In this document: positions 1-50,949 of the stretch, one piece after another
Layout: the number at the start of each line of letters is the position of its first letter
Position numbering within the stretch: position 1 is the first letter of the stretch
From: Cyanophora paradoxa CCMP329
Lineage: Eukaryota; Plantae; Glaucophyta
Length of the DNA: 64,000 nucleotides
Direction of reading: 5' to 3'
Assembly (NCBI GenBank): GCA_004431415.1
Contig: QPMI01000519.1
Location: 1-64,000 of the forward strand
The notes under the pieces: generated by a model
Told to the model about the DNA's origin: nothing
Seen by the model: the letters and a program-made list of their open reading frames with translations, nothing else
Database searches by the model: none
Position numbers and translations under genes: made by a program

Positions 1-1155
1 CATATTTGTCTGCAACCTTGTCCATATTTGAGCACTTGAAGGCATTCCGCAATTAATTCGGCACCTTTGAGGAGAGGGATGGCTCAGTAGCATAGAGACG
101 TTGACCATTAATTTCAACAGTGAAAGTAATGTCTTTTGAGTTAGCATGCGTTTTAGGACACTGTGGGAACCATTGAAACCATCAATACCTGCGGCATCAC
201 GAACTGAAACAAGAAGACCATAGACAAGACCAGAGATCTGTGACAGGTTAATTACGATTTGGTTGAGCATTGCCTTTTGCAGCAAAATTGACACTGTCAA
301 CAAAACCAATATCCAGAGCAGGAATAGCCATACCAGTGGTCTTCACCTTCTCAATGACAGTAGCAAACAGTTCATCAGAAACATTAATAGCATGCATGTA
401 AAGACGAGGAGAAGTGACTTTAATTTCGGGGGTTGTTCCAGAGATGGTGAAAGTGGTGATCTGTTGACCAACATGGGCAAGAGTAGCATTAGCAGTAGCA
501 CCAAGTCCATCATCCTCTGTCTTATCAGCAGCTGTTCCACCACAACTGGAAGAGCACGACACCATAAGAAGTCTCAACATAACCCTTTCCAGATCTCTTG
601 ACCAGACAGTCACCACCATTTCTCCTGTGAGAGCACCAAGAGGGAGGTAGTGGTTTAGCCATGGGACGGGGATTTCAACAAAGAATGACCCACCAAGTCG
701 GTTGGTTCCATGGGCAGGGATAACCATGAACCATACCCATTGAACGCTTCTTCTTGGCGAGTTGATCCTCACTGTAATAGATAAGAGGGAAATGAGCAAG
801 GAAATCAGAAGGCACATGGAAAGTGTAAGATCCATAGGTGATTTCAAGTCGAGAGACAAGAGCACAACTGGGCGAACGTATCCATTGCGAACAAGGTCGG
901 TATCACCAGCAAAAGTGACAGCTGGAAGGTCAAACGCAAGTTCGAGTTTTCCACAGAAATTGTAGCGAGGAGCTTGAAAGAAATGCGATTTCCAGCATTA
1001 TTCTCGAAAGTGTTGCTTGGGTTCACAACAACAAGAACTGGCTTCGACTTGGATTCAAGACCAAGCATGAGAGAGTTGTCCAGAAACGCCTTGGCTTCTT
1101 CGGGGTTGTTAGAGCTTCTTTCAGAGAAACGTTGGAGGGTCGAAGTAATATCCAT
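1..1155 (-). CDS. Major capsid protein (double jelly-roll, PLV type) of element A; frameshifted, 3' end outside window
   Basis: Joining ORFs 844..1194, 248..865 and the frame below 250 gives MDITS...SKPVLVVVNP...ISFKL/PRYNFCGKLELAF...HYLPLGALTGEMVVTV...NQIVINLSQISGLVYGLLVSVRD. This is colinear with the element B MCP (FKPFLETIRP...FDLPRKQLL...YFPLLAL...NAVEISLPTSAGLVHAILMTVRN). Confidence 0.75.
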
Positions 1156-1194
1156 GATTATCTCTTTTATTATACTGCAACATAAAAAATTCAC

Positions 1195-2211
1195 TCAATG
1201 ATCCTTGATTTTACGCAAAACTCGCATTACAGGATAAGATGGATGGGTTTCCGCCATCCTCCTCTTGAAATATTCATACACAGGATCACCAGCAGGTTCA
1301 TCACCATATCGAATTTCGAAGGTGAGGTGCACAGGTTGACCTTCGAAATCAATTGGGTTCATTAATTGCATTCACAATGTCAACCGAAAATGTGGAGAGC
1401 CCAGATTCTTGTTATAGTATTTATAAATCGGATGGGCTTCTGTTGAATTATAAACGACATGCTCACCATAATCTTTATCAGGAACCACGATTTTTGGAAA
1501 TATCCAGTGAGGAGACCATCACCACATTGCACAAGATCACCCAGCTCTTTTACTCTCACAAATAGGACACTATCCTGGTCTTCTCGGGTTCAAATGAAGA
1601 TATAATACCATGCACCATCGACCCAGTGAAGATACCATCAGTAAGAGTATTATAAAATGATTGGATTGGGTGTGTTACCATATCTTCCAGGATCAAGACC
1701 AAGCAGTCGAGCAGAACTCAAAAACCTCTGAATCTGTGCCTGGGTTGGGTTAATTGCGGTTGAGAAAGCCAGGTAAAACGGTATGGTGGAATGGAATATT
1801 ACTCGTTTCAGTGTATCATCCCATTTGCAACGAATAGCTACTGCTGGTTCTCTCAATGCAAGTTTGGAGTTAATTACATTCACCAGTTGTTGGTGTTTTG
1901 AATGGGTGTGCTGCGACTTATCACAATGTGTTTCCATGATTCATAATCGGCAGCAGGTCGATCAGTTGGAATACCAGTGCTTCCTGCACCAGATAACTTT
2001 CAGACCAATAAAGGTAGAATGCATTATCTATGTCACATCTCCTACTTTGGTTTCACCACTCACCATGGGGATGCTGTTATAGAATTCTGCTGAGACCAGT
2101 CTTACTGCTCTTACAAATTCATATGTGCTGGGGGGCGAGCAATAAAACTCGAAGTAGGTCCATCTCCCGAAATTGTATTAAAGAGCTCACTTCAATGTAA
2201 TCCACAGGCAT
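1195..2211 (-). CDS. Minor capsid (penton)-like protein A1; frameshifted
   Basis: Manual translation across frameshifts: N-terminal MPVDYIEVSS...GPTSSFIARP..TYEFVRAVRLVSAEFYNSIP, central SARLLGL (ORF 1650..1937), C-terminal LSTFSVDIVNAINEP.DFEGQPVHLTFEI. These match the PLV/virophage mCP terminal motifs. Confidence 0.65.
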
Positions 2212-2240
2212 CTTCTTTTATCTATAAACATATATTTAAA

Positions 2241-3170
2241 ATGATTCGGCTGGTCAATATAGATAGCAGAGACCGATCAGATGGACAAATAGAAAACTCC
2301 TACAAGTTTCACTCACAACCCCAGTGACCAAACCAAGAGAATGTCGAGTTTTGTATGCAGAGATCCCCAACAGCATCTATAACTCCATTGGAGACCACCT
2401 TCTTGTCAGATTCTACTACCAAGGCATCTCTGAAACCAAGCAGGTCTTCCTTCTCCCCAAGTGGTTACATAAATCAAGGTCATTTCGGGGTCACCACTCC
2501 ATATAATTATGGTCTGAATTCACATTTACTGGGAGCAACAATCTCACATATGCATTCAAGGTCTACTACAACCTACCTCCTACAAATTGGAGTTTTACAG
2601 TAATGTTCAATTCGATATGGTTGCATCTACACAGAGATTTGGGTAAACTTCTTGGTGTGAGTTCAGTGGAGTGGGTGGCTTCCACCGAACAGATTTACGA
2701 TTTTCCCAGCGTCTGCAAGGTCTTTATATGCCCCCGAGAATTTTCCTTTATTTTTCAGGAATACCAATCACCCCAAACCATCCCCAATGGGAATCACATT
2801 CACAGGATATGAATTCGAGGCATCTCGCTTAAAACTACAAGTTAGAAGCATCCAAGATGACAGATATGAATGCAGAACAGTATTTATACATGCACATTAA
2901 AGACTCTCCCCATTTGCTACAAACCACAATATTGTCCCAAGATCACAACCACAGAATCAAGGGGCGATTCTCAGATTGCAGTTAAGTAAAGATATTGGGC
3001 AGTATGTTTATCACAGTGGAGAGCACAGTGAATACATAAAAATAACCGATCGAAACCTTGTGATTAGAGAGTTAACAGTTGAGTTTCGCGATTATTATGG
3101 TGATCTTGTAGATATGAATGGAATTGACAACTCATTCCAGTTAGAGTTCTTGGCTATTGGTAATGATTAA
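2241..3170 (+). CDS. Minor capsid (penton)-like protein A2; frameshifted
   Basis: Starts MIRLVNIDSRDRSDG...CRVLYAEIPNSIYN and ends RELTVEFRDYYGDLVDMNGIDNSFQLEF. These are the IDSRDR N-terminal motif and the C-terminal motif of PLV minor capsid proteins. Confidence 0.75.
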
Positions 3171-3568
3171 ACCGATCCTGATAGAAGAACTCCCCATCTG
3201 TCTCGAAATATTAAGAATGGGACTCTTTCGATCTTCTGTATACCATCGGCGAATTGTCTTATCCCATTTAGCACCATTCTTTTTCAAGAATCTACAAAGA
3301 GTTGATCTCCTTGTAATTCGCAATCCATCTCTTGAAAGATCTCATAATGATCTTGTATTCTTTTCACAATCAAGATGTAAGTCCCATGGAAATTGTGATA
3401 TTGCTGGTTAATCGGCATGTTTCCTTTACAGCATGATGGGAAATCGTTTGTCATTTTTTGGCGAAACGAGAGTATCTCATGAGATAGATGAGAGAATAAC
3501 AGGTGTGTTTTCAGGGTTGGAGAAATCGGAGAAACATAGAGTATTGCGATTTCCGAGTTAGTTGACAC
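3141..3568 (-). CDS. Small protein with DUF5710-like motif; frameshifted
   Basis: ORFs 3284..3568 and 3141..3323. LKKNGAKWDKTIRRWY resembles the K..GA.WD....WY signature of DUF5710. Confidence 0.4.
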
Positions 3569-3591
3569 TGAGAAATTCAGAATTTCAGATG

Positions 3592-4145
3592 GTCTTACTG
3601 AAAATGGTCAGATAATCGGGTGTGACACCTATTTAATTGACTGTGACGCCTCTTTAATTGACTGTGACGCCTGTGACGCCTGTGACGCCTGTGACGCCTA
3701 CTTTCAAACTTTTTAAAATTTTCAAAAATGACAGACTTCTTAAAACAGCCGTCACAGCCGTCACAGGCGTCACACCCAATTAAAAATGGAATCTCTTTCT
3801 CTTACTGAGATATTCAAATATATTCTTGTCTTACTGAAATCCGTCTTGTGACACCTCTGACACCTACAAAACACTATCCATTAATCCACCTTTCCGAAAA
3901 TGCGAAGTTGTCTTACTGGAAATGGTCTGCAATTTCGCTGTGACACCTAATTTAATTGAGTGTGACGCCTGTGACGCCTGTGACACCTACTTTCAAACTT
4001 TTTAAAATTTTCAAAAATGACAGACTTCTGAAAACAGGCGTCACAGCCGTCACAGGCGTCACAGACATTCTACCCCTCTTACTGACTTTCTCAAAAACAA
4101 ATATATCTCTTACTGAATATCATTTGAATACTACCTGTCACACTT
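3592..4145. repeat. Two ~320-bp direct repeats, each with inverted arrays of 9-bp TGTGACGCC units flanking an AT-rich core (origin-like)
   Basis: Copy 1 from 3592 and copy 2 from 3910 both read (tgtgacgcc)x3-4, then tactttcaaactttttaaaattttcaaaaatgacagacttct.aaaaca, then (g[g/c]cgtcaca)x3. Confidence 0.9.
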
Positions 4146-4176
4146 GAATTCATTTATTCTGTTTTATAGAACATAT

Positions 4177-4432
4177 GCAATCTCATCGATTATTCAATTG
4201 GAGACCATGCAACTCTGTGACACTTTTTCGATCAAAAGTATACATCCGCAATCTCATCGATTGTTTAATTGGACATAATGCAGTTCCGATATATTCCAAT
4301 AGAAAATCCGCAATCTAATCGATTGTTTAATTGGAGATAATGCAACTCTGTGACACTTTTTCGGTGCAAAAATGTAAATCCGCAATCCCATCGATTGTTT
4401 AATTGGACATAATGCAACTCTGTGACAGTTTT
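4177..4432. repeat. Four degenerate tandem repeats of 62-72 bp
   Basis: Core gcaatctcatcgattgtttaattggacataatgca, with small variations, starts at 4177, 4248, 4310 and 4382. Confidence 0.9.
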
Positions 4433-4754
4433 TGCGTTTTCCGATACAAAATGGGCGGTGGTCTACTTCAATACCGATGAGATATATCGAGTTTATGCGA
4501 ATTTATGCGAATTTATGCGAATTAATCGCGATTATATCGTTCTTTAAGTAGTTTAATGTTAATCAATCGAAAGTTATATATGTAATCGACAAAGAACATA
4601 ATCTATCGATATAATATCGATTGAATCATCGTGGAATATGCATTAAATTAAACGCGTTTATCATTTTTAATACAAAGTTTGCATTAATTTATACAAAGTT
4701 TGCCATAAAAAGTTAAAGAAATTAATCGATAAATATGTATTTAGTATTAAATTA

Positions 4755-4849
4755 ACACATATTGAAAAACGAATTTAAATCCAGAGTGAATCGAGATCGC
4801 GAAGCGATCGAGATGAACGAGGGATTTAAATTCGTTTTTCAATATGTGT
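4755..4849. repeat. Perfect 28-bp inverted repeat (fold-back) at the element A/host junction
   Basis: 4755-4782 acacatattgaaaaacgaatttaaatcc is the exact reverse complement of 4822-4849. The loop contains a nested gatcgc-gaa-gcgatc hairpin. Confidence 0.95.
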
Positions 4850-5904: not shown

Positions 5905-6223
5905 TCGCGGCCGATCCGAACGTCGACTTTCAGCTATAGCTTCTTGAAGCCTTGAATTTCGTTAATATACTATTTTTGCATCGACTCGAACTGACCCTGG
6001 GCGCAGGAGCGGGACCGGTCGTACCGAAAGCTGCTGGCCGACCTCGCCATAATCTGCGAGGATGCCATCGAAGGGTGCGCTGCGATCGTACACGCGTCCG
6101 GCTTGAGTCTCGCATCCCCGTGCAGCCTTGTCGAGCCCCTCGAGCTGTGGATTCGTCGACCCGCACGTGGATTCACACGCGAGCGCAGGATGCAGGAGAC
6201 GATAGCGGCGCTGTGCGACCTCG

Positions 6224-6229
6224 GGGGCC
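6224..6229 (+). repeat. Target-site duplication GGGGCC (left copy)
   Basis: GGGGCC lies directly before the left TIR and again directly after the right TIR (17379-17384). Confidence 0.85.
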
Positions 6230-6659
6230 AAAAAAAATGAGAGAGGACCTGATTCTGTGGCCCACCCCTCTTCACCACCCTCACCTCTCCGAACCCACCC
6301 CAACCCACCCAATCCAGCGTCTTCCCAGCCATCACTCTCGCCAACCCTTCCGCTACGTCTACCGCCCTTCTCTCCCTCTGGTCTACCTCCCCTTCCATCC
6401 AGCAACCACTAGGTAGTATCTAACGTCTACTCCAATCGATCTTGCAAAAGATATAGCAGTGATTTGAGACGGGCCCCCAACGCGACGGTCTGCAGAGATA
6501 GCTTAATCAGCAGCTAGGCGTTAATACTGTGTTCTTCCTATCTAAATAGCGGAGAGGTTTCCAGGTTCTAGCTAGACGATAAAACTATATAATCGAAGCT
6601 GATTGCATATGCGAGTTTAGGTTCTAGTTAGTCAATAATACTGTGTGGATGATAGCGCC
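6230..6659 (+). repeat. Left terminal inverted repeat of element B
   Basis: aaaaaaaatgagagaggacctgattctgtgg...ctgtgtggatgatagcgcc is the reverse complement of 16951-17378. The only difference noticed is terminal A-run length (8 vs 6). Confidence 0.97.
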
Positions 6660-6732
6660 AGTAGCAATGTTGAAGATTTGGACAGGAAGTCCTAAAAACG
6701 AAAAGATCGAGAGATGTTGAAGATTTGGACAG

Positions 6733-6977
6733 AAAGTATAGTAATGTAGACGAGCTTCTATGCGCTGGCATAAAAGTATAGTAATGTAGACGAGCTTCTA
6801 TGCGCTGGCATAAAAGTATAGTAATGTAGACGAGCTTCTATGCGCTGGCATAAAAGTATAGTAATGTAGACGAGCTTCTATGCGCTGGCATAAAAGTATA
6901 GTAATGTAGACGAGCTTCTATGCGCTGGCATAAAAGTATAGTAATGTAGACGAGCTTCTATGCGCTGGCATAAAAGT
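6733..6977. repeat. Subterminal tandem array, 40-bp unit, about 6 copies
   Basis: aaagtatagtaatgtagacgagcttctatgcgctggcata repeated head-to-tail. Confidence 0.97.
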
Positions 6978-7141
6978 GATAGTGCGCTGATAGTGCGCTG
7001 ATAGTGCGCTGATAGTGCGCTGATAGCTAGCGGAGACAAGCCGGAGACAAGCCCGAGACAAGCCCTGTGCCAAGCCGGATCCCGGAGACCAAGCCCGAGC
7101 CAAGCCGTCAAGCCAATCGTTACAGGCATCGTTACAGGCAT
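6978..7141. repeat. Cluster of short tandem repeats (11-12 bp units)
   Basis: (gatagtgcgct)x4, (ggagacaagcc) about x3, (atcgttacaggc)x2. Confidence 0.85.
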
Positions 7142-7794
7142 TCACTCCCAGCGATGCCGGAGCCCTAGCTTAGTGAAGCCGCTCAGCATTGGCTTGTACT
7201 CGATCGCCGGCCCGACAGGATCAGCACTGCTAGAGGCGATGCGCAGGATCGATGCGTTAGCTACAGGCAGCTCGCTAGCATTCTCATCGACCTCGGGGAT
7301 CGCAACAATCGTCTTAGCAGGAACAGCAGATGCAGGAGGGCAACCTTCTTATCGACCTTTGTCTTCGTGATCGGTTCATTTAAAATCTTGTTCTCCATCT
7401 TAGTCTCAGCCGCGATGCCAGCTATAAGATCACTAGCTCGCTTCTTTGAAACTGTTTTAAGACCGGTCACAGTTTAATGAAATACCTGCTACGATTAGCC
7501 GTCTCTGAGATGTACAGCGGCCATCGTCGGTATCCCTTAGCTTGCTAGTCTTGGTCTTCTTAGTCCGAGAATTCGGGATCTTATCAAGAATAGCGTTCTC
7601 ATCGGCGGTAAGAGCATAGTCGTTGGATGCACCCTCACCGCCACCAGCGCGACGGGCTAGCGGGTAAGCATCAGTATCACCACTCAAGAACTCGATGTGA
7701 TTCTTCTTAGTAGGGCTGGAAGTGCGCAGCCAAACTGCATGTCTGTCGACTTCTTTCGCGGAGTGCGCAGCCGAGACTGCTTGTCTGTCGACAT
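7142..7794 (-). CDS. Hypothetical basic protein of element B; frameshifted
   Basis: ATG at 7794 (MSTDKQSRLRTPRKK). Continues through overlapping ORFs 7457..7687 and 7261..7470 to a stop near 7142. No family recognised. Confidence 0.4.
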
Positions 7795-7819
7795 CTTTTA
7801 ACTAGTAGTGGGAAAAAAC

Positions 7820-8696
7820 TTATGCGAACGATCTGTCGAAGGGGACGTACTCGCTGGCTGCATTCTTGATTGCGGATTTAGCAGCAGCAGACGTGTAAGA
7901 GACATCCTCGATATCGAACTCTAGCACGAACGAGAACTCCGTGTTTGTGACAGCGTCTGTTCCATTATGATAGCGCAGCGATATGTCAAGTTCAGACAGC
8001 TCAGCGTTTCGATCGAAGCCTGTGACGGGAACACGATCCTCAGATGTGAACTTGATGAGCTCCCCGAATTTTGAGTCGATGTGAATCTTTGCGATCGAGC
8101 CCGTTGTATAGGGGTTAAGTGTCAAGATCGAGCCTTTGATCTGCTGAATGTACAGGAACAAATACGTGTGATAAAGTAGATCAACTGGCATATCGCTGAA
8201 CAGCTCGTACGAATATTGTACGCCATCGATTGTCTCAGGTGTTCAAGCTCACTGGAAAGGTCACTGAGAGTCTTCGCAAACCCGAGCAGGTTCGCTAGTT
8301 CGGCCGATGTGAAGCTCAAAATAAAGTCCGCTTCACACAGGAACCTAAGCCGCATTGAGATCTCTTCGAACTGAACGACGAACTTGCGCTGATAAGTAGT
8401 TCCACCGTAACTATACTGCTGGGTTTTAAGAAGCGTGCTTAGATAGTTTGCAAGGGAGGTGGCGTATAGACTCCGGGCTTGAAAGTGTTGGCACGTGTTT
8501 TCTCAACGCCAGAGGGATCAAGGGTGCCGGTGATAATTGCGGCTTGTGTGGACAGGTTGAACATGTTATGAAACAGTTCTAGCGAATCAACTCGCACCGA
8601 CTTTACATTAACGAGGGGCCTTGGGAGATTGATCTTGAAATTCGAGGACGTGCCTTCGAACCGGTCCCTAGAATCGACATTTACGCGGAGCTTCAT
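7820..8696 (-). CDS. Minor capsid (penton) protein of element B; frameshifted
   Basis: MKLRVNVDSRDRFEGTSSNFKINLPRPLVNVKSVRVDSLELFHNMFNL, then LANLLGF, then LSELDISLRYHNG...FSFVLEFDI, across ORFs 8439..8759, 8122..8355 and 7820..8191. Confidence 0.85.
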
Positions 8697-8740
8697 CTTT
8701 ACAACAATATGCATGAAAATTTTCTGGTCTATAATAGCAA

Positions 8741-9968
8741 ATGGCGCAAGCAGGAACAACTCTAAAGGAGCTCCTCACTACCAAAGGTTCAAGCGAGCTT
8801 TATCTATCCCCGGGTCTCACTGTCGGTGTCAGCCCAAGTTCAAGCCTTTCCTTGAAACGATCCGTCCGCGAGGCAACTCGTACGGCTTCGCGCAGACTGC
8901 CGCTTTCGACCTTCCGCGCAAGCAACTTCTAAACGGTGTCTCGCTATACTTTAAGGTCAGCGTCGCTGGCGGAGCGGCCGCCTCAGTGCTGCCGAATGGC
9001 GCAGGTGCATTTATTGAAAACGTGCGCTTTGTTCATGGATCCTTCAAGATGGTGATCCCAGGAGACTGGCTTACTGTGAACGCGCTCATCGATAATAGCG
9101 TTGCATCCGCCCAGGCTTTTGCTAGCAGCTACGGCTTTGGAAAGGACGCTGCTCTTGAGATTCTCGATGCCAGTCGCGAGTATGTGCTAAAGATCCCCTC
9201 CCAGCTCTGGGACAATTCATACTTCCCGCTCCTCGCACTGGCTGACATGCCCACCGTCGAGATTGACTTCCGTTCGGCTTCGGTGGTTGGAACTGTCGCT
9301 AGTGCTGTTGCAACTCTAACGGATTGTGCCCTGGTTTGCCAGTTCGTGAATATCCCTAGCGAAGAGGCTGAGTCTATGCTTAAATCTGCAAACGAGAGCG
9401 GTGGTATTCGAATTCCTTTCACCGAGATTATTTCAAAGCGCTCGAGGCAGTTAAAGACTGACGACGCGGGGAATGCAGTCGAAATCTCCTTGCCAACGTC
9501 AGCGGCCTTGTGCACGCGATCCTGATGACAGTGCGTAATGCGAATCACCTGGGCACTCGCAATCACAATTCATTTGCTGGCAACGGAAATGCGCTGAAAA
9601 TCGATTCGTTTGAGATCATGCACAACAACCGAACTCTCGACATCAGCAATAAGCCAATCTCTGGGTTTGTATCATCGTGCTATCACATTCCAACTCAATA
9701 CCGCGGTGCAACCACTGGCAATTCAGCTCTTGGCTTCGAGGACGGAAATGTCTATGGGATTGTGCTTTCGAAATCTGGCAAAGACTCACTGCATAACGCT
9801 GTCCTCGGCTACACAGACTTCTTTAATTCCAGCAGCAGCTACTGCTCGCTAACTGTGACCGGCTGCACAAACGCAGCGCCAGCAGTTGTTGACTTCCACG
9901 TCCTGCGCCACAATGTTCTCGTAATTAACTCGTATCAAATGTCAACTCTAAAGGTAAGTAACTTCTAG
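8741..9968 (+). CDS. Major capsid protein (double jelly-roll) of element B; two single-base frameshifts
   Basis: About 410 aa, beta-rich, with FDLPRKQLLNGVSLYF, FIENVRF, YFPLLAL...VEIDF and HNVLVI near the C-terminus. Lies between the mCP and the packaging ATPase. Confidence 0.85.
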
Positions 9969-10673
9969 ATGGATATCAAACTGTTTGATCCTACAGAAAT
10001 AAAACTGCCTAAACGGTTCTTGTTTGTCGGTCCAACAAACTCGGGCAAGAGCACCTACGTAAAACACGTGCTAAATGCTGTAGCGCCACAGTTAGACGAT
10101 ATTTACGTCTTCAGTACGACCGCATTTACTGGGCAATGGAATGATACAACACGACCAAGTAATATCCAGGAAGAATGGGATCCAGTTTTGGTTGAAGCGC
10201 TGCTAGAACGACAAAAAGAAAGAAGACGCAAAAATGATGATCGCAAGATTGCAATTGTTTTAGACGATTTACTTGACAATGACCTAGTAAATGTCCACAG
10301 TGACAGACTCATGCAAAAGCTATTTACTTCTGGCCGTCATTACAACACCACCCTTTTCATAACGACTCAACGTCTTTGTGGCATCAGTCCGACGATTCGG
10401 CGGAACTGTGAGTACGTTTGCTTTTCGTCGATTTTGAGCAATGTTAAAGAGTTCAACACTTGCTTCGACGAATATAATGCCGGAGCGAGTCGAGCAAATC
10501 TAATGCGTCTTTTCGTTGAATGGGGTCATTCGTTTCAGGTTTTGATATATGAAGGCGTGAGCGCGGACCGCGTTTATGCTGTTGACAAAGCCTCTGGAAC
10601 GACTTCGGCTCTATTGCGCTTTGTGCGCGTAAAAAAGCAGCGCGATCGAAAGTCGGTAGCCAGGACTGTTTGA
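9969..10673 (+). CDS. A32/FtsK-HerA-type DNA packaging ATPase
   Basis: Walker A GPTNSGKS, Walker B IAIVLDD, arginine-finger motif SGRHYN, sensor ITTQ and IRRN. Confidence 0.95.
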   Translation: MDIKLFDPTEIKLPKRFLFVGPTNSGKSTYVKHVLNAVAPQLDDIYVFSTTAFTGQWNDTTRPSNIQEEWDPVLVEALLERQKERRRKNDDRKIAIVLDDLLDNDLVNVHSDRLMQKLFTSGRHYNTTLFITTQRLCGISPTIRRNCEYVCFSSILSNVKEFNTCFDEYNAGASRANLMRLFVEWGHSFQVLIYEGVSADRVYAVDKASGTTSALLRFVRVKKQRDRKSVARTV

Positions 10674-10836
10674 GCAACCAACTTGTATATTCTGGACGTG
10701 ATGTCGCGATCCACAGGTAGGAGGCTCCTTTAAAAATACCAAAGCTGATGCAGTGACTTGGGGTGAGTTGACTCCTGCCTGGCCAACAGTCTTCTAGATT
10801 TAACTCTTCCTCTGCCGTTTCGAGTTCGAGTTCCAT
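10453..10836 (-). CDS. Small protein with FGxxKG...P.Y..WL motif (DUF3820/ExoX-C-like)
   Basis: ISFGIFKGASYLWIATSRPEYTSWLL. Overlaps the 3' end of the ATPase gene tail-to-tail. Confidence 0.5.
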   Translation of the reverse strand: MELELETAEEELNLEDCWPGRSQLTPSHCISFGIFKGASYLWIATSRPEYTSWLLKQSWLPTFDRAAFLRAQSAIEPKSFQRLCQQHKRGPRSRLHISKPETNDPIQRKDALDLLDSLRHYIRRSKC

Positions 10837-10867
10837 TAAAAAGATAAAGGGGTGTTATTCCCTTCAT

Positions 10868-11398
10868 TCAAACCTGTGGGAAGTTCAGCCGCAGAAACGG
10901 CTTGTCCTCTTCGCTGGTATGTTCTATAACGTAAGCATCACGAGCTTGAGCTGCTGCTTCGGCGGTTGCAAAGTAGCCGATGTTCTTTAGACGGCCATTG
11001 ATCCTGTAATTTGCTTTCCATTTACAAAGTCGCTCATAGAAGCTGACGCCAATGAATCCTGATGTGTTTGTGAGCCGACGGTTTTGGTTCAACATCTGCT
11101 GACGCTTTGTCGCCAAACGTAGATTCTCGCGACGATTATCGAGTTTGTTATTATTAATGTGATCTACAGTAAGGTCATTCTCAAGTCTCCCAACAATGAA
11201 CGTATGCAAATACATATTCTTTCCATTGATCTTGCTCGAGGTATAACCATTGTTCAAACACCATCGTTTCTCCAGCACTCGATCAGCATCATCCTGTGAT
11301 ACAAAAGCGTAGGCGACGATTACTTTGCGCCGATTGCGAATACCGCCTAACGGAATCAAAGCAGCTCCCTCTGGAACATCTGGAACGATGACCTCCAT
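10868..11398 (-). CDS. HNH endonuclease fused to an AP2 DNA-binding domain
   Basis: YLH...VDHINNNKLDNRRENLRLAT (HNH), then NTSGFIGVSF...KWKA..RINGRLKNIGYFATAEAAAQARD (AP2). Confidence 0.93.
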   Translation of the reverse strand: MEVIVPDVPEGAALIPLGGIRNRRKVIVAYAFVSQDDADRVLEKRWCLNNGYTSSKINGKNMYLHTFIVGRLENDLTVDHINNNKLDNRRENLRLATKRQQMLNQNRRLTNTSGFIGVSFYERLCKWKANYRINGRLKNIGYFATAEAAAQARDAYVIEHTSEEDKPFLRLNFPQV

Positions 11399-11529
11399 CT
11401 GCGCAGCGAGCTGCTTGTCTGCGACTTTTTCGTTACATTTACAGTTTGCATTATCTTTAAGACTTAAAAGTCGCGCTAATTTGTCTTAAAAGGATTTATG
11501 TCTCTTATTATTGAGAGACAAACCGAACA

Positions 11530-11874
11530 ATGACTTCTGCAATTACTGCGGATTGCGTTGCGGTTAAACGTGGCCGTGGGCGACCCCCTAAGGTTCGTCT
11601 TTTAACAATGGAGCCTTATCAGCCGAAGAAGAAGGGGCCTAAACCGATGGAGGTCACCCCGGAGATTTTAGCAGAGCGACGCAGAAAGAATGCTGAACGC
11701 AATCGCAAACTGCGCCACACGAACGAAACATACCGTTTGAAACAGCTTGCCATCACAGCGAAGTATCGAGCTGAGAATCCTGATAGGATCCGGGAGTACC
11801 ACAGGAATGCTATTGCGCGTAGATGCCTCGCGAAGAGCGGAGCTTCTGTAGAGCTCGAGGTGATGCAGCTTTAG
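11530..11874 (+). CDS. Small basic AT-hook DNA-binding protein
   Basis: KRGRGRPPK AT-hook followed by an Arg/Lys-rich helical region. Confidence 0.65.
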   Translation: MTSAITADCVAVKRGRGRPPKVRLLTMEPYQPKKKGPKPMEVTPEILAERRRKNAERNRKLRHTNETYRLKQLAITAKYRAENPDRIREYHRNAIARRCLAKSGASVELEVMQL

Positions 11875-12757
11875 CACCTGCTCGTAGCTTTGGCTCCCCT
11901 GCAATCTCAAGCTTCTTGAGCTCTCGATACTGCCGGCTTTGACCGCTGTATTTTTTTGTTTCGATCAAACCCTCACGTCTCAATCGTCTCTGCTGTCGCA
12001 TTTGCACTTCTTCTTTTTCGATTCGTGTTTGAGGTGCAAGCTCACGCGGTTGACGTATTTCCGATGGTTTAACACGTCTAGAAATTTCCACACCCTGTTT
12101 TGTAACGAGTCGAACACGGTTCTTGTCTGCGCCAGCAACTATGTACGTCTCCTTGCTTGGCTTTGTGGTTCCCTTCGCAAAAACGCTTGGCTTCGGCTCC
12201 AGGACTTGCACTTCGGTCCTGTGCGCGGTATGTTCGAATTGTCTCGTTCAATATCGTTCTGTCGCTGTCTAACTTGATGCAGCTGCTCGGCTACCTGTGT
12301 ATTTTCCCGCATCCACTTTGGTGAGTGCTCCCCGCCGAAAGAGCTGTGGGCTGTTTCATTGTACGCCTTGACAATTGCCGGCAAACGTGAGAGGAAATGC
12401 GGGGAGCCACGAGCTTCTGTATCAGTCTGAATCAGTGCTCGCAATGTCCTCGCGAACCTGTCGATAATTCCCAGCTTGGAGCCTTTTGAAATGTGATCAT
12501 CCTTAGCCACATCAGTGTGCATTTTCAACGAGTTCTCTTCAGCCATTTCCCGAATTGCTGCTGTGTTGAAGCCGTTGTCTCCTGAAAAGCCCCATATTCC
12601 AGGTAGCTGCTCGATCATTTTGGAAGCTGCTTAAAAGTCTCGAGCTTACGGACCACAGCGAAACGGGTTGCAATCTCGACCGCTGCGAACAGGCGAAATC
12701 TCCAATGAACAGCACGTCAATTTGCCACGCACCGGGTGGCGCAGTAATCTGGTACAT
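11810..12757 (-). CDS. Retroviral-like (rve) integrase, Polinton type; frameshifted
   Basis: WQIDVLF, SGDNGF, KLGIIDRFARTLR, LPAIVKAYNETAHSSFG..SP and FAKG, across ORFs 12539..12757, 12139..12618 and 11810..12211. Confidence 0.88.
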
Positions 12758-12766
12758 CTTTGTAAA

Positions 12767-15700
12767 TCAGGCGCGATTTTTATAATGTCCAATCGCTCGG
12801 GTGTTGATCCCGTCAGTCTCGAGGAAGCGTTTGGTATCAAGGGGATGTAGAGCCTGACGCGAGGTTCGTTGTAAATAAATCTCATGTAGTTTCGAGCGGA
12901 AACCGAGATTCCTTTGATGTCATACGATTGCTTTTCTCCCTCTTTAGGGCAGACGCACCGGAAGAATACATCCCTTGTGAGTCTGTTGTAGTACGTCTTT
13001 TGAATACCCTTGCATACCTGCTTGTCCGTGGAATCTTCACGCGAATAATAGTAAGATTTCGGCCGGTTAGCGATCCACTCTGTCATTTGCAGACCATGGA
13101 GCTCATCCTTGAATAATCCCGGAGTTTTCCCCATCGATCGTAGAGCTCGAACCTCATCGGCTGTCATGCCATCGAAGAATCGATGTGTCTCTGGGTAGTC
13201 GCTAACATCCAGCTCATGCTTGATTGAGCGTAAATCAGCATAGATATCTTTGGTGCGAACCTCGATGATGAGACTGTCAGTATCCGTACCTAATAGTGTC
13301 AGCCGCTGGCCCAAAGCAGCTTGAGCACCTGGTAGTAAAAGCGGTACATGTGCAGCTTGGAAAGTTCGAGGATGACGAACCCGCAGTAGATAGGTTTGTT
13401 CAGATTGTACTCACTTTTGCGCTTGGAAACGAATACAAGGTTCTCTTCGTACATCACCACCTGCTTCAACCGATTTGGTTCGCTGTTGATCTTCACCAGA
13501 CGGTCTCCCGAAGTCACAAGCTCTGAAAAGCAGTGCTTTCTCACGTTCTCCATTGTTTTGCCAAAGACACTGTTGTTCATCAACTTGTAAAGGTCCTTCT
13601 GGTATGTGAACTGCGATTCTTTACGTTTTTGAGTATTGAGATCTATGAAACGCCCTAGCCATGCGCTTTGTTCGTACGATAGGATCCGATGGATGTTGGT
13701 TACTATCATTCCAGTGACGTATAGAGCTGAAGCAAGCGTCCATCAACAACATAATTCTTTTTTGGAAGCAGATTTGGAACGAGCTTTGGAGTTCGTTCAA
13801 CTGAGGTAAGCTTCTCGTCGTTAATCATATCCTGTTGTCGCTTTGATAGGTGTTCCTTGGACACACACATCCGTTCAGGGGCCAGCGGATAGTCTGAGAA
13901 CTCGTCATGGAGATGCTCAGGCATGTACATATCGACTTCGAGAGCATAGCCACGAGCTCCATCCGCGTCAAGGCTTGCAACGTACTGCATTACATCAACG
14001 TCTTGATCTAGTTTATCCCAGCGGAAATCTCCTGTGGGTAGCTTGCGCTTCATTGCGACGCCGTACAAGTTGTTTGCATCGAGGTACATGAGCCACGATT
14101 CCTTGTGTGTTCGGTAGTAGTTAGAAATGCATGTAGACTGTGAGACTGTAGGCTCAACAGCGTGGGTGTACTTGTTGAACTTTATGCTCAAATATTTGTT
14201 CTCAGCTCGTGCGTAGCGTTTTGAGATCATTGAGATTCCGCCCTGATCCCGGATTCTATAAATCTGTGCATATCCTGCTGCCCCTCGTGAAAGAGCTCGA
14301 GCTTCACTCCAGTGTGCTTAAGTGCTGCCTGCCAAGCAAATCCCGGCGATGACATAAAATAGCTAGGATCTAGGCCATACGTTTCAATACACGTATCACG
14401 ATAGTTTTCAAACACGTCAGCTAGTAACGCGATATCTGTCATCATATACTCCATTGTATAGCCTGATAGCGTTCTGCAGCCGAGCTCTCGCCAAACAGCC
14501 TTCGCATGTGCGTACTCATCTTTCGTGCATTTCTTCTGTTTAAGCTGATTTTTGAAATAACGACGTGCAGGCAGTTTAGACTCCTGAAAGCGAGCCCAGC
14601 TCGTCATGTAGTCATAAGGGTAAATCCCTTTGCTAGTCATCAGCTTGAACCGAGTCTCGTCCAGATACAGCGAGCGCGTGATCTTCTTCTTCTCCGCGGG
14701 CAGAGCCTTTGCAAGGTCGTCCAAGCTCGCATTCAAGTGCTGAGCCGAGTCCCGTAGAACGTAAATTCCATACTTGAACTGCGAAATTCGCTCGCTATTC
14801 TGGAAGACCTGATCGAATTTTATCGAAAGGAGACTCTGCGGGCGGAGCCGGCGTTCGAGCCCCTTCTTCGCCTTCTTTTTCTGCTCTGGGGTCATCTCAC
14901 GCCCACCGTACTTGCTTTCAAACTCGCTTTCGACATGCGCTTGAAACTCCTTCCAAGCTGCTAAACGACGGTTATAGCCAGATGCTAGAGCACGTACGAG
15001 CAGGTGGAAGTCAAATCCTCGACCGTTGTGCCAGAATAATGGAACAGCAGCTGATTTCGCGCGGCGTCGATTGCAAGCTCTCCAGGCAGCCCCGAAATAT
15101 CGGCCAGATTCGTGGCAGTGATCACGGTGCTTGTCTTTCGCATCCTTGAACGTGTTCTTGCACATGTAGCACTCGGTCGTCGTTTGAAAACGCTGCTCCT
15201 CTTCCTGAGTAATCTGGATTGGTGCAGTCTCTCGCAAAAGCTCTCGGAATTGTGGTTCCATTTCGTCCAACCATTGCACGAACTTCTCAGTGCAGTCCTC
15301 GCTCTCCGAACCCATGTATTTGAAACAAAACTGTTCACCTTTTGAAGATACAACCAGACAGCCGACTGAAGCAATCACATGCACACCTTTCTTTTCGGTC
15401 TTTCCACTAATGCAGGGAATTGGCATTGTAATCGTCTCTGAATCAGCATATCCGACCAGACGTTGCCGGATTGAGTACTCAAAGTTAATAAACTTCTGGA
15501 TATGTGCTCCTTTCTCCGGCAGAACATCTCTTGCGTGTTCATCCCGATCAAGGCAACGGTCATATTTCAGATGATTTTCAAATGCTTGATCTGAGCTAAA
15601 ACCGACCTGGCAGGCTAAGCAATAGTGCTTTGCATTTGATTCGTTCTTTCGGAACAGTCGTGAGACGCTCTTAATCCAGAGGTAATGCCCGACATCGTTT

Positions 15701-16821
15701 CCCTCCCCAGCCGGCACATACAGTATTGGGATTGCGTCTCTCGCAGCACTGATATGGATTGGTATGATATCCTGCTTATCTAGAGCAGTTGTATAAACGC
15801 AGAGCTTGACGTTATTTGCTTGCTCGAATTTGGTGAACATCCTCGAGTCAAGCGGGGTCGGATATGTAAGCATTGAGCAGTCCAGCGATGTCTCGTGCTG
15901 GCGGTAGTTCCCTGCATGCCGAGAATCAACACCTTCGCCCAATGGATTGCGAGCAGCAAGGACTGCGTATTTAAAGCACTCGTTGTTCGGTGCATTTATA
16001 TTGATAAGCGCGTGCTTGTCTGAGAGCCACTTTGGCAGTACAAAGCCTCGGCCACGGCCACCAATCCTGCGGAAATAGCGCACAGTTTTAAAGACCAGAT
16101 ACACCCACGTGTCAAATACTGAGGAATCCCTGCTTTTCTCTGCCGAGATCATGTCTAATTCTTCGAGCTGTGAACGCAAGGCCGCCTCAATGCTTGTCCC
16201 TGGCTCGATGCGATCGAAACGACGATGTTCAATAACGATAGCGATCGTAGAATCTGTCTCTGGCTTTCTGTAGACACCCAATCCAGAGATTTGTAGTGCA
16301 ATGCCCATTCTTACCGCCTCTGCAAGATTTACCTGGGCGCTTACGAATGATATAGCATTCTGTTTGAACTGCTCAGAATTCTCGAAGCGAGCTTGCATTG
16401 ATGTTACGCGGCCAGAACCGCGAGGCAATTGGTATTTCCACTCCGCATATCGCCCGTCAAGCGCTGTTGTAGTATTTCCGTCATTGATTTGAACATCATT
16501 TCCACCGTCATCCTCAGGCAGCTCGGCAAAGCCACGGACGATCTCTGCCTGCACCTCTGCGATCGCCAGCTCTAGTCGACGACCTGACACAGGACGCGCT
16601 GGCCTAGGAAGTCTTGCAAGTTCGTTCAAAAGTGAAGCGTACTTTTCCAAAGTTGCAAACCGTGTTCTCGACCCTTGTGCTGAAATTCTAATCAATTTAT
16701 TTTTGAAAGCTCCATGTATGACGCGTCGATTATACAATGAAATCGCGAGCGCTTCGATCTGGTCTTTGATTCTGGCCAACCGGAAGCGCCGAGTCGCTGC
16801 ATTATTTTGGGTAACGTCCAT
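12767..16821 (-). CDS. Protein-primed family B DNA polymerase (pPolB), about 1350 aa; four single-base frameshifts
   Basis: ExoI YADSET, ExoII HNGRGFDFH, KGIYPYDY, ExoIII YMMTD, motif A YLDANNLYG, motif B KLMNNSVFGKT, motif C GTDTDS, TPGLFKDE, and C-terminal DTKRFLETDGINTRAIGHY with stop at 12767. Confidence 0.95.
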
Positions 16822-16950
16822 TGGAAGTATATATCACAATTTTTTTGCTTGTTCCAAACGCAACTTCACATAGCAATATTGGAAAGGGATCTCTTTAAGA
16901 CAAAATAAGAGAAACCTCAATTGCGGTGACCCTTTGGTGATTCAAAGACC

Positions 16951-17378
16951 GGCGCTATCATCCACACAGTATTATTGACTAACTAGAACCTAAACTCGCA
17001 TATGCAATCAGCTTCGATTATATAGTTTTATCGTCTAGCTAGAACCTGGAAACCTCTCCGCTATTTAGATAGGAAGAACACAGTATTAACGCCTAGCTGC
17101 TGATTAAGCTATCTCTGCAGACCGTCGCGTTGGGGGCCCGTCTCAAATCACTGCTATATCTTTTGCAAGATCGATTGGAGTAGACGTTAGATACTACCTA
17201 GTGGTTGCTGGATGGAAGGGGAGGTAGACCAGAGGGAGAGAAGGGCGGTAGACGTAGCGGAAGGGTTGGCGAGAGTGATGGCTGGGAAGACGCTGGATTG
17301 GGTGGGTTGGGGTGGGTTCGGAGAGGTGAGGGTGGTGAAGAGGGGTGGGCCACAGAATCAGGTCCTCTCTCATTTTTT
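16951..17378 (-). repeat. Right terminal inverted repeat of element B
   Basis: Reverse complement of 6230-6659. Confidence 0.97.
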
Positions 17379-17384
17379 GGGGCC
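17379..17384 (+). repeat. Target-site duplication GGGGCC (right copy)
   Basis: Identical to 6224-6229. Confidence 0.85.
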
Positions 17385-18187
17385 CCGACGAGGACGAGCT
17401 CCCCGAGCCGGCCCGCCCCGCCCCGCCTCCGGCCCCGGCCCCGGCGCAACTCGGAGCGTGGCTTCCTCTGACCGCCGCCCGAACCGCGCAGATCCAGGCC
17501 ATGGCGATGCGGATGCTGGAGATGCAGAGGGCCTTCGTGGCGGGGGCCCAGGCCGCCGGCCTGCGGCGGGAGTGGGAGGACAGCTGGCGCGCGCTCGTGA
17601 TCGAGCGGCGCCGCGAGTGCGTGGGCCTCGTCGAGGAGGCCGAGGAGGCCTTCGGGCTGCCGCCCCGCAAGTGGCGCCGCTGGCCCCACGGCCGCTCCGC
17701 CCTCACCGACCTCGGCCCCCGCGCCATCCGCACGCAGGCCCGCCAGCCCAGCCTCGGGCCCGTCGCCCCCGCCCGCCCCCGCCCTCTCCCACGCCCCCTG
17801 CGCCCCGCCCCCGCCCCCGCCGACGCCGACCCCTCCGACCGTGGCAATCCCGCCGCGCGGCCTCCATCCGCCCCTGGGCCGAGCGGCCGCGGGGCGCCCC
17901 GCCGACCCGCTGACCAGCGGCTGCAGCGCTAGCCGGCGCCGGCGCCGGCCCGGCGCGGCGGCCGGTCGTTTAGCGACGGCGCCCTCCTCCGGTACCCTAG
18001 GCCTCCAAATATCGGTCTAGCTATAGATCGAGCGAAGATCATGTTCTGGGAATATATATTGATTTAAGCTCAAGAATGGAATTTCGCAGCTTCGAATTCG
18101 AGAAGCGCAATCTCGCGGACTGGCCATGGCCGCCATTGCGGCAAGTTCATTGATATAACACACGACAGCAGCGTGTGCACGTGTTAC

Positions 18188-30281: not shown

Positions 30282-32370
30282 TTAGTTAATTCGAACATGG
30301 GCGGCGGCTCCAAAACGAGCTCCAAACGAGCGGCGGCGGGGGACGCGACTCGCGAGGGGGCCACAGCTAGTCGAAGTAGGGGAGGAGCTGGGTGCGGGGT
30401 AGGAGCGCCCGCAGGAAGTCCCGGTCCTCCTCGTCGTGCTCCTCCGTCCCCGCCCCCCGCAGGCACAGCCGCCGCAGCCGCCCCAGCGACCCGATCGCCT
30501 GCGCATACGCACGCAGCTCAGGAGAAGAAGAAGGGAAGAAGCGGGGGGGTACGCGAGCCTCGAGGTCGAGGTCGCCCGGCTCCGGGAGGGAGCTGTGCGC
30601 GATGAGCTCCTGGAGGCTGGGTACGTCCTCCCCGAGCCGCTGGGGGCACGCGATCGGCGAAGGAATAGGGTACCCCTGAAGGGAGGGGAGAAGGGCGCAC
30701 GCGGAGGAGGGGGGCGGGGATGGAGTGCTCGCGGTGCGGGGAGCCGAACCCGGCCTTCCTGAGGCGCCCCAGGCCCCGCAGGCTCACCTGAGCCAGCGCC
30801 TCCAGCGTCGCCAGGCTCGACATCAGGGTCAGGACCTGAGGCGGGTTTCGGGGGGTACGCGAAGCGGGCGAGGAAACGGGGGGGCACGCGCCTCGAGGTT
30901 GGCGAGGGCGGGGAGGGCGGCGACGAGGGAGTCGCAGGGGCCGTTCCCGAGCAGCCCGACGTTCAGCTCCCGCAGCGTCCCCGCCACTGCGGGAGGGAAT
31001 TACGCGAGGGGGCGGGGAGGGAAGGGGGAGGGCTACGGGCGCGCCGGCCTCCAGGGGGCTCATGTCGACGTTGTCCGCGCCCCGGATCAGGAGCGTCTGG
31101 AGGGTACGGGTTCGGACGGGGGTACGGGATCGGCGGGCGGGCACGGGAAGAGACCTGGATGTGGGGTACGGCCCGCACAAACTCGATGTTGTCCACGTTC
31201 CTCGTGACGCGCAGCGCTGGCGGGTGCACGATTAACGCGAGACTTGGGGGTACGAGCTAGCGCATACCGGTGAGGTTGGGGAAGCGGAGGGCGGGTACCC
31301 CCTGCCCCTCGAGGCCCTGCCCCTCTGCACGGAGCTCCCTCAGGTTCGGGGCGATCAGCCCGAGGCGCTGCAGGGACGGGGGTACGTCAAAACGATGCGC
31401 CGCGGGACGGGAGGGGGAGGGGGGGGGCGGGGGCGCCTCGAGGAAGGCGCGGGAGACGCCGTCCTCGGCGACGCAGGAGCGCAGCTTGGGGAGGCAGCCG
31501 TCCGGGAGGGCCCTGCACGGCCCCCTCGCTCCGGGGCCGAAGCGGGGGCGGGGGCGGGGCGGGGGCTCGCGGGGGGCGGGCGCACGGGGCGGGGGCCTCC
31601 TTCTCCTTGCGCTTCTTGCCGCGGGCCGGCCTCGCCTTCGCCGGCGGCGCCTCCGCCAGCGCCTCGAAGCAGTCCCGCGGCACCTGCAGCTCCAGCATCT
31701 GCAGCGGAGCGAGGCCCGTCAGCGGTGCGGCGCTGCTGAGGCGGGAGGGTCCGGGAAGCGCGCGCCTCGAGGGCCGGGAGGGCGAGGAGCAGGGGGGGGA
31801 GGGCGCGGGCGAGGCCGGGGGCGGGGAGGTTGCCGGGGGCCGCCCAGAGGAGGGCGAGGGAGCGGAGGGAGGGCGCGAGGGCCGCCACGGGCTCCAGGCT
31901 GCAAGCGGCGCCCAGCTCCAGCCTCAGGTGCTCCAGCCCGCGCAGCGGCCGCAGGAACGACGTCGACTCGACCCGCACCCCCAGCGAGAGCGCTGCCGCA
32001 GCAGCGCGGTCAGGGAGAAGCGGGCGCGGCGGGGTTCGATCCGGGGGCTCGCCGGTCAGCTTCGTGAGGCCCTCGATGGGCTCCAGGTCCGCCTGAGTCG
32101 CGGCGGGGGCCACCTTTGGAGGGGCACTGGGTCAGGAAGATCCGAGAGGGGGGACGGAGAGGAGGGCGGCTACCTCGTTGTCGAGCGAGTGCCCGAAGAA
32201 GCGGAGGCGGAGCTGCGGGCGGGTAAGAAACGCGAGCTCCGCGCAGGCGGGGGCCGGGGCGGGCGGCGGGGCGGGGCGGGGCGGGGCGACCTTCTGGAGG
32301 GAGCGCAGGTGGGAGAGGGCGCGCAGGGCGGGCGCCGGAGAGCTCGCCCCTGCCGGGGGCGTGGGCCGAG

Positions 32371-50597: not shown

Positions 50598-50722
50598 AGC
50601 CGTCTTTATTTGCTATTTTAATTTCTTTGCATCCCCCTCGGGCGGCGAGACTTCCACCCCGGCCAGTGCTCGCGACTCTTTCGCCATCTGAAGCCGTCTT
50701 TATTTGCTATTTTAATTTCTTT
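50535..50722. repeat. 94-bp tandem duplication spanning the cyclase stop codon
   Basis: gcatccccctcgggcggcgagacttcc...tttgctattttaatttcttt occurs at 50535-50628 and again at 50629-50722. Confidence 0.95.
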
Positions 50723-50949
50723 GGCGGTTTCTCGTATTCTTCAGGCTTGGATCTATTATCAAGGTTATTTAGGCGCAGTATTTCCGGAAAGGGATTTCAG
50801 TATTTGCTTGCTGATATCGATGCCCTATACCTAGTTGTCGGATTGCTAGCGCTGCTAGTTTGCTTCATTTTATTTTCAAACTAGCAGAAGATATTTAGGA
50901 AGCGTCCCAATCAATAGTCCTCCAGCTTCATAAGTTATGTTAACAACAG

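What the first reader, a model, noticed from the sequence alone, without database searches (positions are those of the whole stretch)
6224..17384. Full-length, compact (~11 kb), apparently young endogenous Polinton-like virus
Seen: near-identical 430-bp TIRs, an intact 6-bp TSD, and the set pPolB + rve integrase + ATPase + MCP + mCP in only 11.15 kb. No adenain-type maturation protease was recognisable. Established: classical Polintons are usually larger and carry the protease, while many PLVs lack either pPolB or the rve integrase. Inference: this is a minimal self-integrating, possibly virion-forming lineage that inserted recently.
Basis: partly seen in the sequence, partly recalled or inferred. 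Interest (0 to 1): 0.85.

Follow-up and report, generated by a model that had tools for sequence, protein, structure and literature searches.

The report
Small intact virus inside algal genome
An 11-kb DNA virus genome sits whole in the chromosome of an alga, most likely Cyanophora paradoxa, as one of an estimated 20-30 near-identical copies; it is small for its kind and its apparent breaks are likely sequencing errors, but its coat gene was already catalogued in 2023.

Summary
An 11,149-bp element (6230-17378, 48% GC in a ~74% GC host) has 430-bp terminal inverted repeats, identical over 428 nt, and a 6-bp target duplication (GGGGCC). It encodes pPolB with terminal-protein-like and OTU-like domains, an rve integrase, A32 ATPase, MCP, a probable minor capsid protein, HNH-AP2 and two small ORFs. 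No adenain-type protease was found. Its 15 frameshifts are single missing letters; contigs of four public runs carry one more letter there, so they are most likely assembly errors. Contig depth suggests 22-33 copies; differences between copies are mostly silent (16 of 23 codons; MCP 7 of 8).

It is not undiscovered: the MCP differs at 1 of about 360 residues from a Cyanophora paradoxa MCP in Bellas et al. 2023, who counted 366 MCP hits in that species. Lack of the protease is usual in PLVs, and pPolB plus rve is common. What stands out is the size (published range 14-40 kb), the lack of close relatives, and a second PLV family 1.4 kb away. Virions, expression and helper dependence are untested. 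Verdict: new member of a known kind, interest 0.45.

The parts
6224..6229 (.). left target-site duplication GGGGCC
   Evidence: junction crossed by single-copy contigs of X1, X4, X5
6230..6659 (+). left terminal inverted repeat, 430 bp, begins with a run of A
6733..7064 (.). tandem arrays: 40 bp x 6.2 (6733-6983), 11 bp x 4.5 (6977-7026), 11 bp x 3.1 (7031-7064)
7142..7794 (-). about 218-codon K/S/A-rich ORF of unknown function, in pieces (4 breaks); possibly a core or cement protein (inference)
   Evidence: no Pfam or PHROGs hit; no protease profile hit
7820..8696 (-). probable minor capsid (penton) protein, about 290 codons, 2 breaks (8242, 8459)
   Evidence: position head-to-head with MCP; N-terminal DSRDR stretch shared with a gene of the neighbouring element; motif meaning recalled; only E 0.5 against a profile of relatives' ~255-aa genes
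8730..8736 (+). TATAATA, the only copy in the element, just upstream of the MCP start; possible promoter element
8741..9968 (+). [quoted passage not shown]
   Evidence: near-identical to gene_58741 of PMC10120064 Table S2 (HHpred ascovirus MCP, probability 96.9); homologue P0001 whose low-confidence model hits NCLDV and adintovirus MCPs
9969..10673 (+). A32-type packaging ATPase, 234 aa, unbroken
   Evidence: Pox_A32 E 6e-9; profile of 9 relatives E 2e-20
10868..11398 (-). HNH endonuclease with AP2-like C-terminal domain, unbroken
   Evidence: HNH_3 E 1e-11, AP2 E 0.0025; PHROG 99 E 1e-35
11530..11874 (+). 114-aa basic ORF (25% K+R) with a GRGRPPK stretch resembling an AT-hook (recalled motif); probable DNA-binding protein
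11810..12757 (-). rve-type integrase, about 316 codons, 3 breaks (12617, 12701, one within 12129-12538); third catalytic position is D rather than E
12767..16821 (-). protein-primed PolB, about 1,350 codons, 4 breaks (12907, 13309, 13710, 14240): TP-like domain (res. 134-251), OTU-like domain (263-387, Cys282 and His379 kept), zinc finger, EndoVII-like insert, exonuclease and palm motifs
16951..17378 (-). right terminal inverted repeat
17379..17384 (.). right target-site duplication GGGGCC

Best explanation
This is a complete, TIR-bounded provirus of a small Polinton-like virus, likely still coding-intact and recently amplified, in a host that is most likely the glaucophyte Cyanophora paradoxa. 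Steps: (1) shown: it was inserted with a 6-bp target duplication and encodes an rve integrase, the known maker of such duplications; (2) shown as anatomy, inferred as function: its pPolB has the TP-vOTU-Exo-palm layout, so a free linear copy would be replicated from both TIR ends by protein priming, the OTU domain likely cutting off the terminal protein; (3) inferred: ATPase, MCP and mCP package that DNA into an icosahedral particle without a maturation protease; (4) inferred: new copies re-integrate, giving the multi-copy family; (5) least certain, about even odds: having no transcription genes, the copies are held silent by host CpG methylation and are switched on by a co-infecting giant virus, as for mavirus, Gezel-14T and the Tetraselmis PLVs. 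The confidence figure is for steps 1-4.
For: TIR identity 428 of 428, TSD, GC contrast. All 12 listed indels are one letter missing in the window; each is seen in all 4 runs and at full depth in 45 of 48 run-by-site cells; 10 of 12 lie at a run of one base; each closes exactly one frame change; single-copy host flank has the same kind of gap (4 gaps, 0 substitutions, records 16 and 32); 8 of 8 listed X1 contigs have 0 substitutions over 6,529 letters. A published copy reads through both MCP breaks. Variation between copies: 16 silent and 7 changed codons, MCP 7 and 1 (from 25 of the 40 displayed rows; 103 rows were not shown). Depth ratio 22-33. Domain folds: Y-family little-finger match Z 7.5, viral OTU Z 7.2, as described for Polinton pPolBs (bioRxiv 2024.03.18.585575). 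About 90% of the inter-TIR DNA is coding and no gap exceeds 479 bp. Repeats and virus-derived genes are methylated and giant-virus insertions exist in C. paradoxa (PMC12344493).
Against: Contigs of a multi-copy family show the majority form, so they do not prove that this one copy is intact; one residue-changing substitution (15082) is absent from the contigs of all four runs and is either private or an error. Depth ratios are rough (GC bias; the tool says depth is no copy number) and free linear DNA would raise them too. Pattern scans found no relative of the MCP, ATPase or mCP in IMG/VR or JGI metagenomes, so nothing links the family to viromes. The mCP is unconfirmed. Fold Z-scores are middling and the MCP model is poor (pLDDT 37). 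No capsid fibre gene was recognised. The helper step rests on analogy only.
Confidence: 0.7

Rival explanations
1. Transposon-only life: the element copies itself inside the nucleus with pPolB and integrase; the capsid module is retained but no longer used.
For: Many near-identical copies; no relatives in viral or metagenome contigs.
Against: MCP differences between the two subtypes are 7 silent to 1 changed (p 0.0004 against a neutral share of 0.25); capsid, ATPase and mCP frames are all open in the contigs. The selection could predate entry into the genome.
Confidence: 0.12
2. Reduced satellite or deletion derivative: the 11-kb form lost genes (protease, fibre) and borrows them from a larger relative, such as the second PLV family next door.
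For: Size is below the 14-40 kb range. The second family ends 1.4 kb away; one X5 contig links its end to this family's TIR at what seems to be another locus; a published MCP of this family begins with the translated end of the second family, as if nested. Contigs branch near 10669 and 11040.
Against: It carries its own full replication, integration and capsid set; contigs run colinearly across most gene junctions with even depth; there is no nucleotide similarity to the neighbour and the two MCP pieces barely align; protease-less PLVs are the rule outside Polintons and Gosseviruses.
Confidence: 0.12
3. Autonomous nuclear virus: same anatomy, but transcribed by host RNA polymerase II without a giant-virus helper (an alternative to step 5, not to steps 1-4).
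For: A TATA-like motif sits just before both MCP genes in the window; TsV-N1 is reported as a nuclear lytic PLV.
Against: Most PLV isolates named in the papers read are helper dependent; giant-virus insertions are reported in this species.
Confidence: 0.35
4. Decayed copy: the frameshifts are real and this insertion is a fossil.
For: 15 breaks in 5 of 8 genes; short contigs cannot be assigned to this one copy.
Against: All 12 listed breaks are single missing letters, mostly at base runs, with almost no substitutions; the same error type is in single-copy flank; TIRs are identical; no CpG loss (observed/expected 1.07).
Confidence: 0.04

Closest known systems
Cyanophora paradoxa endogenous PLV MCPs of Bellas et al. 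2023 (PMC10120064; Table S2 gene_58741 and gene_49165; Table S4 clusters 16 and 24 by my column count)
   Same: MCP differs at 1 of about 360 residues from gene_58741 (compared by eye); same kind of TIR-bounded EVE; C. paradoxa EVEs of that data set are reused in later papers.
   Different: No text or table I could read gives this family's size, gene order, TSD or copy state. Cluster 16 (272 hits) carries the label 'Dino' and cluster 24 (94 hits) none; which one holds this MCP was not visible in the stored part of the supplement.
Maverick-Polintons / adintoviruses (Polintoviricetes)
   Same: TP-vOTU-pPolB, rve integrase, long TIRs, 6-bp TSD, A32 ATPase, DJR MCP.
   Different: No vUlp1/adenain protease; MCP not hit by Pfam DJR-like_dom PF21738 or by a profile of six Polinton-type MCPs; 11 kb against 15-20 kb; protist host.
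Protease-less PLVs (Aquintoviricetes sense; cryptophyte clusters with rve and TSDs, PMC12220804)
   Same: Reduced morphogenetic module (MCP, mCP, ATPase); rve with 6-bp TSD; pPolB is one of the interchangeable replicases.
   Different: About half the mean length reported for Rhodomonas PLVs (22.2 kb); no methyltransferase, fibre or helicase recognised; MCP has a single detectable relative among 1.84 billion representatives.
Mavirus-like endogenous virophages
   Same: pPolB plus rve, TIRs, lower GC than host, many copies.
   Different: No virophage-type MCP or protease match; full exonuclease domain present, unlike mavirus pPolB.

Membership tests
Polinton-like virus (umbrella term) | double jelly-roll MCP | tested here: met
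   near-identity to an HHpred-confirmed MCP; low-confidence model of homologue P0001 hits NCLDV and adintovirus MCPs
Polinton-like virus (umbrella term) | A32-like packaging ATPase | tested here: met
Polinton-like virus (umbrella term) | [quoted passage not shown] | tested here: inconclusive
   position, size and recalled DSRDR motif; profile E 0.5; no relatives found
Polinton-like virus (umbrella term) | TIR-bounded integrated genome with GC shift | tested here: met
Aquintoviricetes (incl. Dino group) | placement by MCP profile set and ATPase phylogeny | not testable with these tools
   the HMM set of bioRxiv 2026.06.19.733378 lies in closed supplements; the 'Dino' label of cluster 16 is a lead only
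Aquintoviricetes (incl. Dino group) | reduced morphogenetic module without maturation protease | tested here: met
Polintoviricetes (Group 1 Maverick-Polinton) | pPolB with TP and vOTU domains | tested here: met
   fold Z-scores middling (7.2-7.5)
Polintoviricetes (Group 1 Maverick-Polinton) | rve integrase and 6-bp TSD | tested here: met
Polintoviricetes (Group 1 Maverick-Polinton) | vUlp1/adenain maturation protease | tested here: not met
   profiles of 7 Polinton-type and 4 virophage-type proteases find each other's members (E 2e-7 to 7e-4) but nothing in the element (best E 0.59); no room outside assigned ORFs
Polintoviricetes (Group 1 Maverick-Polinton) | Polinton-type MCP | tested here: not met
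   PF21738 scores a relative's MCP at E 3e-170 but none of the window's MCP pieces; own profile gives no hit on the MCP
Virophaviricetes (virophages) | virophage-type MCP and protease | tested here: not met
   no ORF of the 22 loci, among them two that I read as virophages from gene content (L001, L005), hits the MCP region at E 1e-3; protease absent
Virophaviricetes (virophages) | dependence on a giant virus | not testable with these tools
   needs observation in infected cells
Transpoviron (capsid-less pPolB plus integrase element) | no morphogenetic module | tested here: not met
   MCP and ATPase present

The most novel reading that the evidence does not exclude
A glaucophyte-specific deep lineage whose whole family is about 11.2 kb with eight genes: the smallest self-integrating, virion-forming double jelly-roll virus with its own protein-primed polymerase, living in clusters and nests with a second, hairpin-ended PLV family and acting as a giant-virus-triggered defence in the earliest-branching plastid lineage.
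Probability: 0.2. Interest if true: 0.72.

Novelty: new member of a known kind. Interest (0 to 1): 0.45.

Why it matters
It gives a clean lower bound on what an integrating Polinton-like virus needs: polymerase, integrase, ATPase, two capsid genes and three small genes in 11.2 kb, under the 14-40 kb quoted in reviews. It sits in a cultivable model alga for which methylome data exist and in which no virus isolate turned up in my searches, so the open question whether protist PLVs without a maturation protease form particles, and whether they need a giant virus, can be asked directly. It also shows that the genome of this species, whose genome paper has no mention of viruses in its main text, holds young, intact-looking viral families hidden by long-read errors.

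Tried and rejected
No whole genome is held, so copies could not be counted directly. No empty-site branch was seen at the left junction, but contigs drop rare variants and the two flanks were laid in separate calls, so a joint across the element could not appear. Homologue searches: MCP piece, longer proteins, none; P0001, only itself; integrase piece, longer proteins, none; exact look-ups 0 of 4; integrase piece against PDB sequences and plasmids, nothing significant. ESM Atlas not available. pPolB tree: quick tree only, 18 rows, 5 partial or broken loci left out (L011, L013, L015, L019, L020); the window row is a long branch (2.14, best identity 34%) in no supported group, so no placement is claimed. 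Host reading frame across the removed element is open (78 + 182 codons), but 4 of 6 frames are open that far on both sides in this GC-rich DNA, so it is not counted. The idea that the palindrome at 4755-4849 is a free MITE was dropped: depth shows it is the end of a high-copy element. The 10.6-11.8-kb IMG/VR contigs among the relatives are cut off and are no evidence for other small genomes. Earlier findings of this scan: none. Paper search found nothing. No complex prediction was run.
Full report
Observation. The element spans 6230-17378 (11,149 bp) between two GGGGCC hexamers at 6224-6229 and 17379-17384. GC is 48% against 68-74% in the flanks. The inverted repeats match perfectly over 428 nt; only the terminal A/T run differs, 8 against 6. 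Two random host hexamers match with probability 0.0013. Single-copy contigs of X1, X4 and X5 cross the left junction without a difference and stop 30 letters into the TIR. On the right, contigs of X5 and X19 run from 17351 into the flank, 28 window letters of TIR, short of the tool's bar for bridging.

Gene content. From left to right: tandem arrays; a ~218-codon K/S/A-rich ORF (-); a probable mCP (-); MCP (+); A32 ATPase (+); HNH-AP2 (-); a 114-aa basic ORF (+); integrase (-); pPolB (-). These cover about 90% of the DNA between the TIRs, and the largest gap is the 479-bp array region. The ATPase and HNH have Pfam hits. The pPolB aligns in five colinear pieces to a relative's polymerase and keeps the exonuclease and palm motifs searched for. 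A model of its first 430 residues (14-row alignment, pLDDT 64 overall, about 90 in residues 261-390) matches the little-finger domain of Y-family polymerases at residues 134-251 (Z 7.5) and viral OTU proteases at 263-387 (Z 7.2); Cys282 and His379 are invariant in 14 of 14 rows. This is the TP-vOTU layout described for Polinton pPolBs (bioRxiv 2024.03.18.585575, passages). The Z-scores are middling and helical bundles rank above them, so the match counts because of the agreement with that paper. The integrase has no Pfam hit of its own, but 11 of 12 integrase candidates from relatives match rve (8 of them above Pfam's cut-off), and a profile of 10 hits three colinear window pieces (E 1.5, 1e-12, 6e-4). 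Two protease profiles that detect each other's members find nothing in the element. The mCP is not confirmed.

Are the breaks real? Five genes are in pieces, with 15 breaks: 12 listed and 3 deduced from gap counts of contigs there. All 12 are one letter missing in the window. Each shows in all four runs laid, at full depth in 45 of 48 cells; 10 of 12 lie at a run of one base; the gaps close the frame changes exactly. The 8 listed X1 contigs have no substitution over 6,529 letters, and single-copy host flank shows the same gaps. Decay would give more substitutions than indels, so this is a long-read error pattern. Limits: contigs show the majority form of a multi-copy family, and one residue-changing substitution at 15082 is in none of the contigs.

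Copy number, age, selection. 19 of 24 listed runs hold 85-91% of the sampled words, all under one organism code; I laid 5 of them. Element contigs are 22-33 times as deep as single-copy junction contigs, a rough figure. Zero differences between TIR arms bound their divergence at under 0.7%. The left junction is in runs listed for 2012, 2019 and 2024, so the insertion is not a fresh jump. Of 25 displayed differences in tested coding pieces, 19 are at third positions; 16 codons are silent and 7 changed, in the MCP 7 and 1. 103 further rows were not shown by the tool.

Host and prior knowledge. Table S2 of Bellas et al. 2023 (PMC10120064; main text parts 1-4 of 7, supplement file 2 parts 22, 28, 29, 30 and search hits; the file is cut, so per-hit tables S5 and S6 were not seen) lists a Cyanophora paradoxa MCP that differs from the window's at 1 of about 360 residues by eye and reads through both breaks. 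Other entries resemble the neighbouring element's MCP and P0001, the only hit among 1.84 billion representatives (28%, E 9e-5). Table S4 gives 366 MCP hits in two clusters, 16 and 24 by my column count. The host is therefore most likely C. paradoxa. Starrett et al. 2021 (PMC8502044, passages) mention adintovirus-like proteins in this species, and its EVEs appear by id in PMC12220804 (passages, section 10, supplement hits) and bioRxiv 2026.10.13.758929 (passages). No paper found in searches describes this family's anatomy; the library lacks most subscription papers, and bioRxiv supplements and deposited data sets were not visible, so a map of it may exist there. Also read as passages: PMC12344493, PMC12721341, bioRxiv 2022.05.02.489867, PMC6704402; bioRxiv 2026.06.19.733378 parts 1-4 of 5.

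How it most likely works. Integration by the rve enzyme with a 6-bp duplication is shown by anatomy and matches PMC12220804. Protein-primed replication of a linear form from the TIRs, release of the terminal protein by the OTU domain, and packaging by ATPase into an MCP/mCP shell are inferred from the domains. Silent-biased change in the MCP suggests that the capsid has been in use. With no transcription genes, expression must come from the host or a giant virus. C. paradoxa methylates repeats and virus-derived genes and holds giant-virus insertions, and most PLV isolates named need a helper, so I put helper-triggered reactivation at about even odds against autonomous nuclear growth.

Comparison. 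It works like a Polinton (TP-vOTU-pPolB, rve, TIR, TSD) but fails two membership tests for Group 1 Polintoviricetes: protease and MCP type. It is not a virophage by MCP or protease. It fits the PLV umbrella, where the protease is a core gene only in Gosseviruses and replicases swap freely. Finer placement could not be tested; the pPolB is a long unresolved branch with at most 34% identity to 17 relatives.

Verdict. A real, probably intact, young, multi-copy PLV, already present in a published MCP catalogue but apparently not described. Its distinctions are the size, below the 14-40 kb range, the isolation of its capsid lineage, and its closeness to a second, hairpin-ended family. New member of a known kind; interest 0.45.

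Noticed in passing
window 1-4849: End of a second, unrelated-looking PLV family (GC 40%): MCP-like gene (about 1-1155, - strand) resembling gene_64235 of PMC10120064 Table S2 by eye, two mCP-like genes head to head, subterminal repeats; depth 28-67 times single copy at its MCP. It runs off the window.
   Followed up: partly
window 4755-4849: The very end of that family is a 95-nt palindrome with a perfect 28-bp stem (DNA fold -34.8 kcal/mol, z -11.7, 0 of 200 shuffles). A hairpin-capable terminus is odd for a protein-primed genome and may point to another way of priming. Not found in IMG/VR.
   Followed up: partly
window 4756-4849 and PMC10120064 Table S2 gene_58741: The published MCP starts with the translation of this end and then runs into the MCP of the focal family: likely a nested insertion of one PLV into the other's capsid gene at another locus.
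   Followed up: no
window 4849 and 6228: One X5 contig (depth 72) joins the second family's end to the focal family's TIR with unknown letters between: possibly a second locus where the two families lie side by side.
   Followed up: no
window 8730-8736 and 1168-1174: TATAATA lies just upstream of the MCP start in both families; 1 occurrence in the focal element, 4 in the 4.85 kb of the other.
   Followed up: partly
window 7295-7356, 8880-9282, 10669-11462: At least two subtypes of the focal family; contigs for the ATPase and HNH region carry about 60-70% of the depth of the mCP region, with branch points near 10669 and 11040.
   Followed up: partly
window 6230-6237 and 17373-17378: Termini are A/T runs (8 and 6) followed by TGAGAGAG, not the AG start recalled for Polintons.
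   Followed up: no
window 12340-12345 (integrase): Third catalytic residue is D (IIDRF) where most relatives have E; L016 has D too.
   Followed up: partly
L006, L007, L009: Three IMG/VR relatives also have the integrase directly behind pPolB on the same strand.
   Followed up: no
window 5995-6229 and 17385-17932: The insertion may interrupt a host coding frame; weak, see Tried and rejected.
   Followed up: partly
window 50000-64000: GC drops to about 59%; several ORFs without Pfam hits, one LRR-looking by eye (52299-53585, -).
   Followed up: no
window 30730-30802: ARAGORN calls a tRNA-Pro (ggg) on the - strand in GC-rich host DNA.
   Followed up: no
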